From Escherichia coli (GTDB lineage Bacteria > Pseudomonadota > Gammaproteobacteria > Enterobacterales > Enterobacteriaceae), in assembly GCF_009931435.1 (NCBI RefSeq), contig NZ_CP043414.1: a stretch of 64,000 nucleotides of DNA; one strand, given 5' to 3'. This document shows, piece by piece, positions 5,850-9,227 of this stretch. A program made the position numbers and the translations under genes. The notes beneath the pieces were generated by a model. The model saw nothing but the letters and a program-made list of their open reading frames with translations, ran no database searches and was not told the DNA's origin. Numbering within the stretch: the stretch's first letter is position 1; each line of letters starts with the position of its first letter.

Positions 5850-6304
5850 TGGAGTTAATGGTCGTTCACCCACATATTTTCTGGCTCAGTCTCGGCGGGT
5901 TGCTGCTGGCTGCCGAAATGCTGGGCGGCAATGGTTATCTGTTGTGGAGCGGCGTGGCAGCGGTGATTACCGGCCTGGTGGTCTGGTTGCTGCCGCTGGG
6001 CTGGGAGTGGCAAGGGGTGATGTTTGCCATCCTGACGCTGCTCGCCGCCTGGCTGTGGTGGAAATGGTTGTCGCGACGGGTTCGCGAACAAAAGCACAGC
6101 GACAGTCATCTTAACCAGCGCGGGCAGCAGCTGATTGGCCGACGTTTTGTGCTGGAATCACCGCTGGTCAATGGGCGAGGTCATATGCGCGTCGGCGACA
6201 GTTCATGGCCTGTCAGCGCCAGCGAGGATCTCAGTGCAGGTACGCATGTTGAGGTGATTGCGATAGAAGGGATAACGCTGATTATCCGTGCGGTCATCGC
6301 CTGA
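5846..6304 (+). CDS. ybbJ: NfeD-family membrane protein YbbJ (QmcA partner)
   Basis: 152-aa ORF overlapping the qmcA stop by 4 nt; hydrophobic N-terminus and a C-terminal OB-like soluble domain. Confidence 0.85.
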
Positions 6305-6386
6305 TGCGACGCTGGCGCGTCTTATCATGCCTACAAAATATGCCCGAATCGTAGGCCAGATAAGGTGCTTGCGCCGCATCCGGCAT
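6301..6386. repeat. REP/BIME palindromic elements at the ybbJ 3' end
   Basis: ctgatgcgacgctggcgcgtcttatcatgcctac ... gtaggccagataaggtgcttgcgccgcatccggca, read directly. This marks the left edge of the ybbJ-cueR insert. Confidence 0.75.
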
Positions 6387-6406
6387 ATAGCCGAGTAGAG
6401 GCAAAA

Positions 6407-6769
6407 TTACTCTTCCCGGCCTTTACCCATACTTTTTTGGTCTTCATCCGGATAATGTTTTTTTAGATATTCCAGGACGTTTTTATTGACCTTGTGTTGC
6501 GTATACACCCACCCTTTCCAGTAATCAGGCTGGTCCAGGTAAACTTCTGGCGGAATGGTGAAATCAGAAAGCGTTAACCATTCGGCTAATAGATCGGGGT
6601 TTCGTTTCTGGATTAACTGCAACAGCATAATCAGTGACATAGCTGAGGCAGGAGCCGTACTATCGCCACTTAAATATTTCCACACTGTTGACCGGTTCGA
6701 ACGAAAAAGGATCGGTAGCAATGCCCGGTCCAGATTCATTTCATTAAAAATCTTCTCAAATTCATTCAT
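6407..6769 (-). CDS. Hypothetical 120-aa protein (no motif I recognise), first gene of the ybbJ-cueR accessory block
   Basis: Intact ORF with an AGGAAA Shine-Dalgarno about 8 nt upstream; transcribed divergently from the autotransporter-like gene across an AT-rich spacer. Confidence 0.5.
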   Translation of the reverse strand: MNEFEKIFNEMNLDRALLPILFRSNRSTVWKYLSGDSTAPASAMSLIMLLQLIQKRNPDLLAEWLTLSDFTIPPEVYLDQPDYWKGWVYTQHKVNKNVLEYLKKHYPDEDQKSMGKGREE

Positions 6770-7135
6770 TTAAATTTTCCTGCCTGGCGTAAACCTCTTA
6801 AAAATTGAGATTTATCAAAGAAACGCATTTTAGCACACATCAGGAACTGCTTCACGTTTAGTCCAGAAACAGAATTTATTTCGCTTATCAAAACAAGTCT
6901 TTACTCTTTTTTACATTGAAAGAGCACGAAATGATTTCCTTTTTTATTTATATAAGAAACCATTTTTGTTTCTTATTGATGGTGTTTACGCTTACACCAG
7001 ACAAAAATGCGCTTTACATCACACAAATGGCGGCGTAGATTTCGATTAAATTGCAACGTAGTTTATTTCTTAAAACAATATTATTTGTTTCTTATGGAAA
7101 CATTAATGCGACTTATTTTGAACAAGAGAAAATGA

Positions 7136-8152
7136 ATGAAAACTGTAAACGTAGCTTTACTGGCACTCATAATTTCAGCAACATCCAGCCCTATTGTTTT
7201 AGCTGGTGATACCATTGAAGCGGCGGCAACAGAGCTTTCAGCCATTAACTCTGGCATGTCGCAATCGGAGATTGAGCAGAAGATTACCCGCTTTTTAGAA
7301 CGCACCGACAACAGCCCCGCTGCATATACCTATTTGACTGAACATCACTACATCCCTTCTGAAACACCTGATACCACTCTGACTCCCCCTGTCCAGACAG
7401 ATCCTGACGCAGGACAAAAAACCGTTGCCGCTACAGGTGATGTACAGACAACCGCCCGTTATCAGAGCATGATCAACGCCCGACAGTCTGCGGTAACTGA
7501 TGCCCAGCAAACGCAAATTACAGAGCAACAGGCGCAGATCGTAGCCACACAAAAAACGCTCGCCGCGACTGGAGATACGCAAAATACCGCGCATTATCAG
7601 GAGATGATTAATGCCAGGCTGGCGGCTCAAAATGAGGCTAATCAGCGCACTACCACTGAACAAGGGCAGAAAATGAATGCGCTGACAACCGATGTGGCAG
7701 CACAACAGCAATATGAAAGGACTCAATACGATAAACAAATGCAAAGTCTGGCGCAGAAGTCTGTCCAGGCACATGAGCAAATTGAAAGTCTGAGACAAGA
7801 TTCCGCACAAACGCAGCAACAGTTAACCAACACCCAAAACCGGGTCGCTGATAACAGCCAGCAAATTAACACGCTCAATAACCATTTCGATTCTCTGAAA
7901 AACGAAGTTGAGGACAATCGTAAAGAAGCCAATGCGGGAACTGCATCTGCCATCGCTATCGCCTCACAACCACAGGTGAAAACCGGTGACTTGATGATGG
8001 TGTCAGCGGGAGCGGGAACGTTCAACGGTGAATCTGCGGTGTCTGTAGGAACATCTTTTAATGCCGGAACGCATACGGTACTTAAAGCAGGTATTTCTGC
8101 GGATACACAATCTGATTTCGGTGCGGGTGTCGGCGTGGGATATTCGTTCTAA
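7136..8152 (+). CDS. Short trimeric-autotransporter-like protein with YadA-type C-terminal membrane anchor
   Basis: N-terminal signal peptide (MKTVNVALLALIISATSSPIVLAGD), Q-rich coiled-coil stalk with an internal ~40-aa duplication, and a C-terminal ~75 aa (ASAIAIASQPQ...GDLMMVSAGAGTFNGESAVSVG...FGAGVGVGYSF) matching the YadA anchor pattern with a terminal aromatic. Confidence 0.75.
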   Translation: MKTVNVALLALIISATSSPIVLAGDTIEAAATELSAINSGMSQSEIEQKITRFLERTDNSPAAYTYLTEHHYIPSETPDTTLTPPVQTDPDAGQKTVAATGDVQTTARYQSMINARQSAVTDAQQTQITEQQAQIVATQKTLAATGDTQNTAHYQEMINARLAAQNEANQRTTTEQGQKMNALTTDVAAQQQYERTQYDKQMQSLAQKSVQAHEQIESLRQDSAQTQQQLTNTQNRVADNSQQINTLNNHFDSLKNEVEDNRKEANAGTASAIAIASQPQVKTGDLMMVSAGAGTFNGESAVSVGTSFNAGTHTVLKAGISADTQSDFGAGVGVGYSF

Positions 8153-8205
8153 TTTTAACAGCAATTTCTTATTCGCAATTTTCCGCACATTATTTAAGGT
8201 TAACA

Positions 8206-8628
8206 ATGATGAATAGCTCCATTAAATCGTTTTCCCTGCTGGCGGTTATATTACTGGCTGGCTGTAGTTCACCCACTTCCGGCATCGCAGATTGCCAGGC
8301 GCAGGGCGTCAGTCATGATACCTGTTATCTCGCAGAACAGCAGCGTCAGACGGCTATTTTAAGTGCATCCGAGGCGCAGGCATTTAAAAATGCAGAAGCC
8401 GCACAACATGCCCAGGCGGCAAAGAAAGCCATTTATAAAGGATTTGGCGTCACCTTCAGAATGAGCAGTAAGAACTTTGCTTATCTCAATGATTCATTAT
8501 GTGCCATAGATGAAGATAATGCCGATGCCACGGTTTATCAGTCGGGTCTGTATAACGTCATTGTTTATCATCACACAGGAAAAATCGCCTTAATGAAAGA
8601 AGGCCAGTTTGTGGGTTATTTAAAATGA
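8206..8628 (+). CDS. Putative lipoprotein (140 aa)
   Basis: Signal peptide ending in lipobox L-A-G-C (LLAGCSS); same strand and immediately downstream of the autotransporter-like gene. Confidence 0.6.
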   Translation: MMNSSIKSFSLLAVILLAGCSSPTSGIADCQAQGVSHDTCYLAEQQRQTAILSASEAQAFKNAEAAQHAQAAKKAIYKGFGVTFRMSSKNFAYLNDSLCAIDEDNADATVYQSGLYNVIVYHHTGKIALMKEGQFVGYLK

Positions 8629-8816
8629 AACTCACGCTTATACATATTATGATTATTGGCGCTTTTATCTTTGCATTCTTGCAAGTGGTATTATTAGCCT
8701 CCCTGGTTCACGCTATGAATGTTAACAACGAAATCCAGGAAGGCTTATTTCAGTCGGGGCGCATTATGGTAGAAAGTTTGCAGCATATTCTTTCGGTGCA
8801 AACGGGGATTAACTGA
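8625..8816 (+). CDS. Putative small membrane protein (63 aa), translationally coupled to the lipoprotein gene
   Basis: ATGA start/stop overlap with the upstream ORF; one predicted transmembrane helix (IMIIGAFIFAFLQVVLLASLV). Its stop lies 3 bp from the convergent cueR stop. Confidence 0.4.
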   Translation: MKLTLIHIMIIGAFIFAFLQVVLLASLVHAMNVNNEIQEGLFQSGRIMVESLQHILSVQTGIN

Positions 8817-8819
8817 TTT

Positions 8820-9227
8820 TCACCCTGCCCGATGATGACAGCAGCCAGAGAGATTTTCGATAATCGGGCAATCGGCGCTGTCATCACCGGGGCAGGCATT
8901 CGCCAGCGCCAGTAGCTGGTCGCGCATGGATTGCAGCTCCTCAATGTGCCGTTCGATCTCCGCCACCTTCTCCAGCGTGCGCCGTTTTACATCGGCGCTA
9001 TGCCGCTGCGGGTCGTTAAACAGATTTACCAGTTCGCCGCTCTCTTCCAGGTTAAAGCCCACCTGGCGCGCCTGGCGCAGTAAGGTCAGTTCGTTGAGAT
9101 GCTGCTGCGTGTAGGTTCGATAACCATTTTCGCTGCGCATCGGCGGCGTCACCAGCCCCTTTTCTTCATAGAAGCGAATGGCTTTGCTGGTCAGGCCGGT
9201 AATTTTTGCTACATCGCTAATGTTCAT
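8820..9227 (-). CDS. cueR: Cu(I)-responsive MerR-family transcriptional activator CueR
   Basis: 135-aa [29 protein letters not shown]..., with the MerR HTH and the C-terminal metal-binding [10 protein letters not shown] motif. Confidence 0.95.

What the first reader, a model, noticed from the sequence alone, without database searches (positions are those of the whole stretch)
6387..8819. AT-rich accessory block between ybbJ and cueR: short YadA-anchor protein, lipoprotein and membrane peptide
ybbJ and cueR are adjacent in K-12 as I recall it, but here they are separated by ~2.4 kb. The block has a divergent 120-aa ORF (6407-6769, minus) and a plus-strand three-gene unit: a 338-aa protein with signal peptide, Q-rich coiled-coil stalk and YadA-type C-terminal anchor (7136-8152); a 140-aa lipoprotein with lipobox LAGC (8206-8628); and an ATGA-coupled 63-aa single-TM peptide (8625-8816). 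The 366-bp spacer 6770-7135 is conspicuously AT-rich with A/T tracts, as is typical for horizontally acquired, H-NS-silenced promoters. The autotransporter-like protein is unusually short (~240-aa passenger, no recognisable head domain). Pairing of a trimeric autotransporter with a small lipoprotein resembles the Salmonella SadA/SadB arrangement (from memory), though here the lipoprotein is downstream. The three-gene unit ends 3 bp from the convergent cueR stop with no terminator between them.
Basis: partly seen in the sequence, partly recalled or inferred. Interest (0 to 1): 0.6.

Follow-up and report, generated by a model that had tools for sequence, protein, structure and literature searches.

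The report
O-island 29: adhesin with partner lipoprotein
This block is the known E. coli accessory island OI-29. It encodes a short outer-membrane "trimeric autotransporter" surface protein (published, questionably, as the transcription factor GmrA), its likely regulator, and a small partner lipoprotein that accompanies such proteins in many enterobacteria and has not been described before.

Summary
In detail: all four ORFs, the AT-rich spacer (31% GC) and the 3-bp gap to cueR are as described. K-12 has 0 bp between the ybbJ and cueR stop codons. The block is O-island 29 of EHEC O157:H7 (z0640/z0639/z0638) and is present in about 26% of 5,426 complete E. coli genomes.

The 338-aa protein has a full-length YadA anchor (Pfam E=1.6e-11) and matches solved AtaA, Hia and YadA anchors, so it is a head-less trimeric autotransporter (TAA). 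Primer mapping shows it is the protein published in 2018 as "GmrA", a fliA-promoter-binding activator. That assignment conflicts with its signal peptide and β-barrel anchor.

The lipoprotein belongs to a small, unannotated family. It has a lipobox, a Cys-motif helix module and an eight-stranded β-barrel. It lies next to a YadA-anchor gene in 15 of 19 species found in one genome scan, and in further loci, even where passengers are unrelated. It is not related to SadB or TpgA in sequence or fold. It is therefore a candidate third kind of TAA partner; that function is inferred, not shown.

The 63-aa peptide is under purifying selection.

The parts
6299..6391 (.). REP/BIME pair (two inverted REP units) directly after the ybbJ stop, at the left edge of the variable segment
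   Evidence: The sequence GCCTGATGCGACGCTGGCGCGTCTTATCATGCCTAC ... GTAGGCCAGATAAGGTGCTTGCGCCGCATCCGGCA. Sub-threshold hits to the REP-derived naRNA4 model. The segment is repeated many times per genome (median of 8 places per genome).
6407..6769 (-). 120-aa XRE-type helix-turn-helix protein (orthologue of EDL933 z0640 / Sakai ECs_0549), transcribed divergently from the adhesin operon; the likely local regulator
6770..7135 (.). AT-rich divergent control region (30.9% GC)
   Evidence: Several blocks are invariant between Escherichia and Pseudocitrobacter although the proteins have diverged.
7013..7041 (+). Candidate sigma-70 promoter of the adhesin operon (TTTACA, 17 nt spacer, TAGATT)
   Evidence: Consensus scan, 9 of 12 matches. 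Most positions of both hexamers, including most of the -10, are invariant in all six aligned sequences from three species groups. Not tested experimentally.
7087..7101 (.). Palindrome GTTTC-N5-GAAAC between the promoter and the start codon; candidate operator for the XRE protein (inference)
   Evidence: A similar imperfect palindrome ending in the invariant GGAAAC lies at the same place in Pseudocitrobacter: TTTC-TTTAG-GAAA in L010 and GTTCC-AAA-GGAAC in L008. Four GAAAC motifs in the spacer are invariant across the six sequences.
7136..8152 (+). 338-aa head-less trimeric autotransporter (type Vc); same gene as EDL933 z0639 'gmrA' and Sakai ECs_0548 ('adhesin', 'Saa-like protein')
   Evidence: Pfam YadA_anchor E=1.6e-11. 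Matches solved anchors of AtaA (4e-7), Hia (6e-6) and YadA (0.04). RefSeq names it 'YadA family autotransporter adhesin'. The gmrA deletion, cloning, FLAG and qPCR primers map onto exactly this ORF.
7136..7204 (+). Sec-type signal peptide (MKTVNVALLALIISATSSPIVLA|GD)
   Evidence: Read directly from the sequence. The same layout is kept in the E. whittamii and Pseudocitrobacter homologues. No predictor was available.
7415..7618 (+). Two copies of the stalk motif QKT(V/L)AATGD.Q.TA.YQ.MINAR (residues 94-116 and 139-161); three copies in E. whittamii
   Evidence: The resemblance of V-A-A-T-G-D to the beta-layer motif M-A-T-K-D-D of trimeric coiled coils (PMC4786415) is a lead only.
7700..7969 (+). 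Continuous heptad-register coiled coil leading into the anchor (about residues 190-278)
   Evidence: Constant best register from residue ~190 to ~270. Only weak, generic coiled-coil profile hits: SMC, JetC, ATG16, TMF_DNA_bd.
7970..8149 (+). YadA-type membrane anchor (residues 279-338), ending in ...GVGYSF
8206..8628 (+). 140-aa lipoprotein (EDL933 z0638, Sakai ECs_0546): lipobox LLAG|CSS, Cys-motif helical module (C30...C40), long Ala/Gln-rich helix, and a C-terminal eight-stranded beta-barrel (residues 76-139)
8625..8816 (+). 63-aa peptide, start overlapping the lipoprotein stop (ATGA): hydrophobic residues 4-29 ending in VHA, then a ~33-residue polar tail. It is either a single-pass inner-membrane peptide or a small secreted periplasmic peptide
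   Evidence: Homologues of 60-68 aa with the same 4-bp overlap occur in E. coli, E. whittamii, Pseudocitrobacter and an unnamed enterobacterium, L061. dN/dS 0.11-0.14. No database family.
8817..8819 (.). Right junction: 3 bp between the peptide stop and the cueR stop. This is a deletion scar relative to the long form of the island, which carries a 407-aa gene here
   Evidence: The window lacks L002 7027-8344. Sakai has the same junction sequence.

Best explanation
Window 6305-8819 is the short form of the E. coli accessory island OI-29. It carries a four-gene surface-protein module found in many Enterobacterales.

(1) A small XRE-type helix-turn-helix protein is read divergently and most likely controls the shared AT-rich promoter region (inferred).

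(2) The 338-aa protein is a head-less trimeric autotransporter. It is exported by Sec through its N-terminal signal peptide. Three copies each contribute four C-terminal strands to a 12-stranded outer-membrane barrel, inserted by BAM via the terminal ...GYSF. The barrel displays a fibre of roughly 250 residues per chain that is rich in coiled coil. These steps follow from membership of the family; they were not shown here.

(3) The lipoprotein (Ser at +2, so sorted to the outer membrane) faces the periplasm. Through its beta-barrel domain, and possibly a trimeric alanine-zipper helix, it acts on the conserved anchor part of the autotransporter as a dedicated partner, helping assembly, stability or tethering. 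In this it would be analogous to SadB or TpgA without being related to them. The conserved adjacency is shown; the mechanism is inferred.

(4) A translationally coupled 63-aa hydrophobic peptide is a lineage-specific add-on of unknown role.

The published description of the 338-aa protein as the cytoplasmic transcription activator GmrA is probably a misassignment of mechanism, although the motility phenotype itself may be real.
For: Identity of the island:
- Sakai ECs_0549/0548/0546 lie in the same order at the same junction.
- The paper describes a 2,643-bp OI-29 with z0638, z0639 and z0640.
- The paper's primers map uniquely to the flanks and ends of the 338-aa ORF.

The 338-aa protein is a TAA:
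- Full-length PF03895 match, E=1.6e-11.
- Matches to solved AtaA, Hia and YadA anchors.
- Signal peptide, no Cys, terminal Phe, and a heptad register running into the anchor.
- 18 of 21 related proteins match PF03895 and none has a YadA head or stalk domain.

The partner protein:
- In one scan of one genome per species, 15 of 19 species with a homologue that keeps the beta-barrel domain have a YadA-anchor ORF next to it. These include E. whittamii, Pseudocitrobacter, six Rahnella species, Yersinia aleksiciae, Enterobacter, Phytobacter and Pantoea.
- Six further contexts found through protein look-ups agree.
- Rahnella woolbedingensis has a tandem TAA-lipoprotein-TAA-lipoprotein arrangement.
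- In L063 the two modules of the lipoprotein are separate adjacent genes next to a TAA.
- The N-terminal 240 residues of the TAA are recognisable only in Escherichia and Pseudocitrobacter, whereas the anchors stay 40-59% identical. The partner therefore tracks the anchor, not the passenger.
- In E. coli the genes co-occur almost perfectly: 1,415, 1,382 and 1,416 genomes.
- All four genes are under purifying selection.

The regulator:
- XRE fold, conserved divergent position, and conserved promoter and palindrome.

Against a DNA-binding role for the TAA:
- It has no significant DNA-binding domain. The only such hits are generic coiled-coil matches: SMC at 20.9 bits against a 567-bit cut-off, and TMF_DNA_bd at E=0.088.
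- The published constructs put a His tag in front of the signal peptide and a 3xFLAG tag directly after the terminal Phe of the barrel.
Against: - Nothing here shows localisation, trimerisation, or any effect of the lipoprotein on the autotransporter.
- Multimer modelling was not available.
- Four species have the lipoprotein without a nearby TAA: Erwinia rhapontici, Serratia silvae, Raoultella terrigena and Atlantibacter hermannii.
- Deleting OI-29 did not change adherence of O157:H7 to HeLa or Caco-2 cells (PMC5826968), so 'adhesin' is a family name, not a demonstrated activity.
- The same paper reports EMSA and ChIP-qPCR binding of the protein to the fliA promoter. It also reports complementation of motility by the gene alone, including in K-12. 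My reading does not explain these results.
- Sequence support for the HTH is weak (E about 0.05-0.2). The assignment rests on a predicted fold.
Confidence: 0.7

Rival explanations
1. The 338-aa protein is, as published, GmrA: a cytoplasmic transcription activator that binds the fliA promoter and switches on flagellar genes. On this view the YadA-anchor similarity is irrelevant, or the protein moonlights.
For: PMC5826968:
- The gmrA deletion lowers motility, flagella number and fliA/fliC/motA transcripts.
- The gene complements in trans and raises motility in K-12.
- EMSA with His-tagged protein shifts the fliA promoter but not the flhDC promoter.
- ChIP-qPCR shows 7.75-fold enrichment.
- Eight strains show the same phenotype.
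The assignment is repeated in a 2024 review.
Against: - The protein has a Sec signal peptide, a full-length YadA anchor and a terminal aromatic residue.
- It has no DNA-binding domain above noise. The likely source of the 'putative DNA-binding domain' is a coiled-coil match such as TMF_DNA_bd (E=0.088) or SMC; this is my inference, because the paper's figure S3B was not readable.
- Both tagged constructs would be expected to block normal export or assembly.
- The island's actual HTH protein is z0640.
- No paper in the searchable library discusses the conflict.
Confidence: 0.12
2. The lipoprotein is an independent periplasmic protection or binding protein, for example a PliC/MliC/ACP-like lysozyme inhibitor. 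It merely travels with the adhesin gene and does not act on it.
Against: - Sequence identity to those inhibitors is 8-15%, and there is no sequence-level match.
- Adjacency to TAAs persists across genera, across unrelated passengers, in both gene orders and in a tandem duplication. Hitch-hiking alone would not be expected to give this pattern.
Confidence: 0.12
3. The three plus-strand genes form a trans-envelope signalling chain. A surface fibre senses contact, the outer-membrane lipoprotein relays the signal, and the inner-membrane peptide passes it inwards, with motility as an output. This would reconcile the GmrA phenotype with the protein's topology.
For: The three products are predicted to sit in three successive envelope layers. 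The lipoprotein and peptide genes are translationally coupled. Deleting the TAA alters flagellar expression.
Against: - Deleting z0638 had no motility phenotype, and the TAA gene alone raised motility in K-12, which lacks the other genes.
- The peptide is absent or replaced by unrelated small ORFs in Rahnella, Serratia, Pantoea and Enterobacter.
- There is no known signalling domain.
Confidence: 0.06
4. The block is a decaying remnant of a larger island with no current function.
For: The window and Sakai have lost the 407-aa gene of the long form. Many strains keep only fragments of that gene or nothing at all. Only 26% of strains carry the module.
Against: - All four genes are intact and under purifying selection, with dN/dS 0.03-0.25.
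- They are intact in more than 1,400 genomes.
- They are transcribed in O157:H7.
Confidence: 0.04

Closest known systems
SadA/SadB of Salmonella (TAA plus dedicated trimeric lipoprotein; PMC3953254)
   Same: A TAA gene is paired in one transcription unit with a small lipoprotein. That lipoprotein has an N-terminal helical (possibly coiled-coil) segment followed by a compact beta domain, and it is restricted to Enterobacterales.
AtaA/TpgA of Acinetobacter sp. Tol 5 (TAA plus periplasmic BamE-like/OmpA-like partner)
   Same: The partner gene lies downstream of the TAA. The partner is thought to bind the barrel from the periplasm. The best solved-structure match of this anchor is the AtaA anchor.
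Short, largely coiled-coil TAAs such as Neisseria NadA and Haemophilus ducreyi DsrA (from general knowledge, not compared here)
   Same: A small TAA whose passenger is mostly coiled coil, with no YadA-like head.
   Different: No detectable passenger similarity to anything outside Escherichia and Pseudocitrobacter. The stalk motif QKTxAATGD...YQxMINAR is specific to this group.
Saa (the STEC plasmid TAA), the label given to ECs0548 by Ogura et al. 2007 (PMC2323221)
   Same: Both are E. coli TAAs with a YadA-type anchor.
   Different: In the plasmid collection, only anchor-level matches were found (residues ~212-338, at most 59% identity) and no passenger similarity. The label reflects the shared anchor only.
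XRE/Cro-type small regulators with a C-terminal helical extension (e.g. Aca2, HigA2, MqsA C-domain)
   Same: The predicted fold of residues ~1-60 of the 120-aa protein, and the conserved R-S-T recognition-helix motif.
   Different: Sequence similarity is below family thresholds. There is no toxin or anti-CRISPR partner gene; the conserved neighbour is a TAA operon.

Membership tests
Trimeric autotransporter (type Vc secretion) | C-terminal YadA-like membrane anchor domain (four beta-strands per chain) | tested here: met
   PF03895 E=1.6e-11, residues 279-338, model positions 1-60 of 60. phmmer hits to the solved anchors of AtaA (4.3e-7), Hia (5.8e-6) and YadA (0.037).
Trimeric autotransporter (type Vc secretion) | N-terminal Sec signal peptide | tested here: met
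   MKTVNVALLALIISATSSPIVLA|GD, read from the sequence. The layout is conserved in homologues. No dedicated predictor was run.
Trimeric autotransporter (type Vc secretion) | C-terminal aromatic residue (BAM beta-signal) | tested here: met
   The protein ends ...GVGYSF. Relatives end in F or W.
Trimeric autotransporter (type Vc secretion) | Coiled-coil stalk running into the anchor | tested here: met
   Constant heptad register from residue ~190 to ~270. Generic coiled-coil profile hits over residues 100-270.
Trimeric autotransporter (type Vc secretion) | Homotrimer forming a 12-stranded barrel | not testable with these tools
Trimeric autotransporter (type Vc secretion) | Surface display and adhesive activity | not tested
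   From the literature: deleting OI-29 did not change adherence to HeLa or Caco-2 cells (PMC5826968).
YadA-like TAAs with a head domain | YadA head, Hep_Hag or YadA stalk repeats | tested here: not met
   No such Pfam hit in this protein or in any of the 21 lipoprotein-associated TAAs.
SadB/YajI lipoproteins (TAA export helper) | Sequence homology to SadB/YajI | tested here: not met
   No PDB hit to SadB or YajI, with either a single sequence or a 29-sequence profile, at E<=10.
SadB/YajI lipoproteins (TAA export helper) | MATH-like C-terminal domain | tested here: not met
SadB/YajI lipoproteins (TAA export helper) | Asp at +2 (inner-membrane retention) | tested here: not met
   The mature N-terminus is C-S-S. 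No family member has Asp at +2.
SadB/YajI lipoproteins (TAA export helper) | Gene in an operon with a TAA gene | tested here: met
   Adjacent on the same strand, 53 bp downstream. Conserved in 15 of 19 species and in further loci. Co-transcription itself was not tested.
TpgA-type partners | BamE-like domain with or without an OmpA-like peptidoglycan-binding domain | tested here: not met
   No Pfam or NCBIfam hit. No BamE, OmpA or TpgA entry among the structure matches.
XRE-family HTH regulators (120-aa ORF) | Five-helix Cro/cI-type HTH fold | tested here: met
XRE-family HTH regulators (120-aa ORF) | Significant match to an HTH sequence family | tested here: inconclusive
   MqsA_antitoxin E=0.12; HTH_26, HTH_3 and Xre-like E about 0.05; HigA2 E=0.22; hhalign against MqsA E=0.16.
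'GmrA' transcription activator, as published | A DNA-binding domain in the 338-aa protein | tested here: not met
   Only sub-threshold coiled-coil look-alikes: TMF_DNA_bd E=0.088; SMC 20.9 bits against a cut-off of 567.
'GmrA' transcription activator, as published | Cytoplasmic location | not testable with these tools
   The sequence predicts export and outer-membrane insertion. The published constructs were tagged at both targeting ends.
O-island 29 of EHEC O157:H7 | Same genes at the same chromosomal junction | tested here: met
   95-96% DNA identity to Sakai over the block, same order, same right-hand junction. The paper's primers map here.
PliC/MliC/ACP periplasmic lysozyme inhibitors | Fold and family sequence motifs | tested here: inconclusive

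The most novel reading that the evidence does not exclude
The beta-barrel (lipo)protein is the founding member of a third, so far unrecognised class of dedicated partner proteins for trimeric autotransporters. It would be specific to a head-less enterobacterial TAA subfamily. It would have been missed by the 2026 global survey, which required a YadA head domain and concluded that further helpers are unlikely. In addition, 'GmrA' would be an outer-membrane fibre whose effect on motility is indirect, so the published regulatory mechanism would need revision.
Probability: 0.45. Interest if true: 0.7.

Novelty: new variant of a known kind. Interest (0 to 1): 0.55.

Why it matters
There are three reasons.

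1. A protein that has entered the EHEC literature and reviews as a laterally acquired transcription activator of flagella (GmrA) has the sequence of a Sec-exported, outer-membrane trimeric autotransporter. If that sequence reading is right, the mechanism in those papers needs re-examination. The link between this surface fibre and motility then becomes an open and easily testable question.

2. Only two TAA partner proteins are known, SadB and TpgA. A 2026 survey concluded that more are unlikely. The conserved pairing found here offers a concrete third candidate, with a simple genetic test in E. coli.

3. The locus shows that the surroundings of qmcA-ybbJ-cueR hold a variable surface-protein cassette in several genera. 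This matters for interpreting strain-to-strain differences in E. coli surface proteins.

Tried and rejected
- SadB homology: rejected. No sequence or fold match and a different +2 residue.
- TpgA/BamE-like partner: rejected.
- TraV or Lpp relationship of the lipoprotein: only sub-threshold hits. TraV scored 18.4 bits against a cut-off of 44.75; Ala_zip_lipo gave E=0.047; TraV in the PDB gave E=0.87. I keep the alanine-zipper idea only as a lead for possible trimerisation.
- Anti-phage defence: no PADLOC hit for any of the small proteins, and only coiled-coil noise for the TAA.
- Toxin-antitoxin reading of the MqsA-like ORF: no toxin partner, and the conserved neighbour is the TAA operon.
- Tandem DNA repeats in the TAA gene: none found by TRF. 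The two stalk motifs are diverged at the DNA level.
- Structured RNAs: only REP-derived sub-threshold hits.
- Plasmid or phage origin: no passenger-level match in the plasmid or phage collections. All E. coli copies are chromosomal and single-copy.
- Recent insertion by a mobile element: no integrase, tRNA or direct repeats at the junctions. The segment lies exactly between two stop codons. In Pseudocitrobacter and Serratia, ybbJ and cueR overlap, so abutting genes look ancestral.
- Non-coli origin of the window: rejected. The TAA gene is 99.8% identical to E. coli MFDS1022581, and the 120-aa gene is 100% identical to strain 2013C-4282.


Full report
**1. The observation.**
All four ORFs exist at the stated coordinates: 120 aa at 6407-6769 (minus strand), 338 aa at 7136-8152, 140 aa at 8206-8628 and 63 aa at 8625-8816. 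The 140-aa and 63-aa genes overlap by ATGA. ybbJ ends at 6304. The cueR stop codon is at 8820-8822, three bases after the peptide stop.

The divergent spacer 6770-7135 is 30.9% GC. The block as a whole is 43.6% and the window 54.7%. A consensus scan finds no terminator-like site between the last gene and cueR.

In a K-12-type genome the ybbJ stop (TAA) directly abuts the cueR stop, with no base between them. The extra DNA is therefore exactly window 6305-8819, 2,515 bp. Its left edge carries a pair of REP elements.

**2. The block is a known island.**
The same genes lie at the same junction in O157:H7 Sakai: ECs_0549 is annotated 'hypothetical', ECs_0548 'adhesin' and ECs_0546 'putative lipoprotein'. 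They are also present in EPEC E2348/69.

This is O-island 29 of EDL933, described as a 2,643-bp island holding z0638, z0639 and z0640 (PMC5826968). It is also S-loop 43 of Sakai, where ECs0548 was listed as a 'Saa-like protein' (PMC2323221).

Among 5,426 complete E. coli genomes:

| Feature | Genomes with a match |
|---|---|
| Flanking sequence | 5,425 |
| 120-aa gene | 1,415 |
| TAA gene | 1,382 |
| Lipoprotein plus peptide | 1,416 |

All copies are chromosomal and nearly all genomes carry a single copy.

The junction exists in a series of forms:
- empty, as in K-12;
- a long form with an additional 407-aa gene of unknown function next to cueR (L002, L007, E. whittamii L013);
- that gene alone (strain 317);
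- fragments of that gene (THO-015, E2348/69);
- the short form seen here and in Sakai, which share the same deletion junction.

**3. The 338-aa protein is a trimeric autotransporter (TAA).**
Evidence for the anchor:
- Pfam YadA_anchor matches residues 279-338 over the whole model, E=1.6e-11.
- The C-terminal ~95 residues align with the solved anchors of AtaA, Hia and YadA.
- RefSeq names the orthologues 'YadA family autotransporter adhesin'.

Other features of the sequence:
- It starts with a typical signal peptide (MKTVNVALLALIISATSSPIVLA|GD).
- It has no Cys or Trp and ends in ...GYSF.
- A constant heptad register runs from about residue 190 into the anchor.
- The composition is Ala, Thr and Gln rich, at 13.6%, 12.4% and 11.8%.
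- There is no head, neck or stalk-repeat domain.
- A 23-residue motif, QKT(V/L)AATGD.Q.TA.YQ.MINAR, occurs twice here and three times in E. whittamii.

The V-A-A-T-G-D core of that motif resembles the beta-layer motif of trimeric coiled coils (PMC4786415). I record this as a lead, not a test.

The passenger is polymorphic in E. coli. About 1,027 genomes carry this allele, and about 350 match only in the C-terminal third to two-thirds of the gene at 80-84% identity. One example is an allele of about 594 aa in L007. Its dN/dS of 0.20-0.25 is the highest of the four genes.

Trimer formation and surface display were not testable here.

**4. The same gene is published as a transcription factor.**

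Their supplementary primers settle which gene this is:
- The deletion arms end at the base before the ATG and begin just after the stop of the 338-aa ORF. They match uniquely in Sakai and in the window.
- The expression primer starts ATGAAAACTGTAAACGTAGCTTTA, which is window 7136.
- The 3xFLAG primer fuses the tag directly to ...GVGYSF.
- The qPCR primers lie in the anchor.

GmrA is therefore the TAA. I find no DNA-binding domain in it. The only such names among the sub-threshold hits are coiled-coil look-alikes: TMF_DNA_bd at E=0.088, and SMC at 20.9 bits against a cut-off of 567. I suspect, but could not verify, that one of these is the basis of the published domain call.

The EMSA protein carried an N-terminal His tag in front of the signal peptide and was taken from soluble extract. 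The ChIP protein carried a tag after the terminal Phe. By established knowledge of Sec targeting and the C-terminal signal of outer-membrane proteins, both would be expected to prevent normal export or assembly. This is an inference.

The motility phenotype itself may be real. It was complemented in trans, seen in eight strains, and transferable to K-12. My reading does not explain it. No paper in the searchable library mentions the conflict, and a 2024 review repeats the regulator assignment.

**5. The island's real HTH protein is the 120-aa ORF.**

Homologues sit divergently upstream of the TAA gene in Escherichia, Pseudocitrobacter, Rahnella, Yersinia and further unnamed enterobacteria.

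The spacer contains a promoter-like TTTACA-17-TAGATT at 7013-7041, most of whose hexamer positions are invariant from E. coli to Pseudocitrobacter. It also contains four invariant GAAAC motifs. A palindrome GTTTC-N5-GAAAC at 7087-7101 has partly conserved counterparts in Pseudocitrobacter. I infer that the HTH protein regulates this region; this is untested.

The region is not silent in O157:H7. Published RPKM values in DMEM are 20, 96 and 44 for the three genes, falling to 0 on HeLa-attached cells.

**6. The lipoprotein is the most interesting part.**
It has no Pfam, NCBIfam or PDB sequence match. The family is tiny: 153 clusters at E<=0.001 among 1.84 billion representative proteins.

The alignment and the model show four elements:
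- a lipobox with Ser at +2;
- a short helical module with two conserved cysteines (C..AQGxS.DTCYLAEQNRQ);
- a long Ala/Gln-rich helix, modelled with low confidence;
- a C-terminal eight-stranded beta-barrel of about 65 residues at pLDDT >90.

*Genomic context.* Three distant homologues (38-65% identity) each lie directly downstream of a YadA_anchor gene, in Pseudocitrobacter faecalis, Enterobacter asburiae and a metagenomic Pseudocitrobacter-like contig.

I then scanned one genome per species and analysed the loci with locally built HMMs. Of 19 species whose homologue keeps the beta-barrel domain, 15 have a YadA-anchor ORF next to it. These include six Rahnella species, Yersinia aleksiciae, Enterobacter, Phytobacter, Pantoea and E. 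whittamii.

Further observations point the same way:
- Rahnella woolbedingensis has a tandem TAA-lipoprotein-TAA-lipoprotein arrangement.
- More distant, non-lipidated versions of the barrel protein also sit beside TAAs (L060-L062).
- In L063 the N-module lipoprotein and the barrel protein are separate adjacent genes upstream of a TAA.
- The associated TAAs range from 284 to 728 aa. 18 of 21 match PF03895, none has a YadA head, and three carry collagen repeats.
- Their passengers are not detectably related to this one outside Escherichia and Pseudocitrobacter, while the anchors stay 40-59% identical.

The partner therefore tracks the anchor. That points to an action on the membrane-proximal or periplasmic part of the TAA.

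*Exceptions and variants.* Four species have the lipoprotein without a nearby TAA. The N-terminal module also occurs alone, or with a different C-domain, mostly without TAAs.

*Relation to the literature.* A 2026 preprint states that SadB and TpgA are the only known TAA helpers. It found no others and thought more unlikely, but it surveyed only TAAs that have a YadA head domain (10.64898/2026.01.22.700529). That criterion excludes this whole subfamily.

**7. The small peptide.**
It is a real gene. Homologues of 60-68 aa keep the 4-bp start/stop overlap in E. coli, E. whittamii, Pseudocitrobacter and L061, and dN/dS is 0.11-0.14.

It has one long hydrophobic stretch ending in a conserved (V/I)-H-A, followed by about 33 polar residues. 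It could be a single-pass inner-membrane peptide, or a signal peptide releasing a small periplasmic peptide. I cannot decide between these.

In other lineages the coupled third ORF is different or absent: a soluble 71-80-aa protein in Rahnella and Serratia, a C-terminally hydrophobic 69-aa ORF in Pantoea, and none in Enterobacter. The peptide is therefore a lineage-specific accessory. The window's allele lacks four or five N-terminal residues, including most of the basic ones, that other E. coli alleles have.

**8. Evolutionary setting.**
The module lies next to qmcA-ybbJ in several genera, though not always on the same side:
- between ybbJ and cueR in Escherichia;
- upstream of qmcA in Pseudocitrobacter, in Serratia silvae (there without the TAA) and in the unnamed enterobacteria L060-L063.

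In Pseudocitrobacter, Serratia and L062, ybbJ and cueR overlap or abut. The K-12 arrangement therefore looks ancestral and the Escherichia position derived. I found no integrase, tRNA or target duplication at the junctions.

**9. Verdict.**
However, the block is already known as OI-29, and its TAA is already annotated.

Two things go beyond what is known:
- the conflict between the published function of 'GmrA' and its sequence;
- the conserved, previously undescribed partner (lipo)protein family.

The partner's mechanism remains an inference from conserved gene neighbourhood. I rate the module as a new variant of a known kind (a TAA with a dedicated partner), of moderate interest.

Noticed in passing
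window 9224-33333 (minus strand): On the other side of cueR lie a type I secretion system and a giant adhesin: HlyD-type adaptor at 9224-10399, ABC permease/ATPase at 10396-12558, and a 6,923-aa ORF at 12562-33333 annotated in relatives as 'BapA-related adhesin SiiEA'. cueR is thus flanked on both sides by accessory surface-protein loci. K-12 and E2348/69 keep only a 98-bp frameshifted HlyD remnant overlapping the cueR start, so K-12 has lost this system by deletion.
   Followed up: partly
L002 7121-8344; L006 2124-3347; L013 5709-6938: The long form of the island carries a 407-aa gene with no Pfam-independent family hit (none in NCBIfam or PADLOC). It ends exactly at the cueR stop. It is present in 966 E. 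coli genomes, full-length in only 271, and sometimes without the rest of the island.
   Followed up: partly
L029, L033, L035, L036, L038-L043, L046, L051 (position about 5001 in each): The N-terminal module of the lipoprotein (lipobox plus C.AQGIS.DTCYLAEQNRQ...ENA) exists as a stand-alone 65-69-aa lipoprotein in Buttiauxella, Atlantibacter and Aeromonas eucrenophila. In Kluyvera, Lelliottia and Enterobacter soli it is fused to a different C-domain. Most of these are not next to a TAA.
   Followed up: partly
proteins P0194 (1,212 aa), P0209 (1,125 aa), P0225 (1,400 aa): Three very large proteins contain 5-9 repeats matching profile positions ~87-133 of the lipoprotein, which lie in its beta-barrel region. 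Their nature and context were not examined.
   Followed up: no
L008 1801-5532 and 8050-9936 (Pseudocitrobacter faecalis): Here the module has two YadA-anchor genes in tandem (633 and 608 aa). It lies about 1.5 kb from a large serine recombinase gene, at a chromosomal site unrelated to qmcA-ybbJ. This may be a mobile copy.
   Followed up: no
window 8123-8147: A weak terminator-like hairpin followed by a T-rich tract spans the last codons of the TAA gene and the spacer before the lipoprotein gene. It could lower read-through into the downstream genes. Published RPKM values of 96 against 20 fit that idea, but this is only a consensus match.
   Followed up: no
window 6250-6304 compared with L004 1970-2005: The last ~35 bp of ybbJ differ at about a third of positions between island-bearing strains and K-12, while keeping the same length. 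This suggests old, distinct haplotypes at the junction rather than a recent insertion or deletion.
   Followed up: no
PMC5826968 discussion, compared: The paper infers four independent gains of OI-29. The nested series of junction forms (full, minus the 407-aa gene, that gene only, fragments, empty), together with the island's presence in E. whittamii, fits repeated loss and/or exchange by homologous recombination at least as well.
   Followed up: partly
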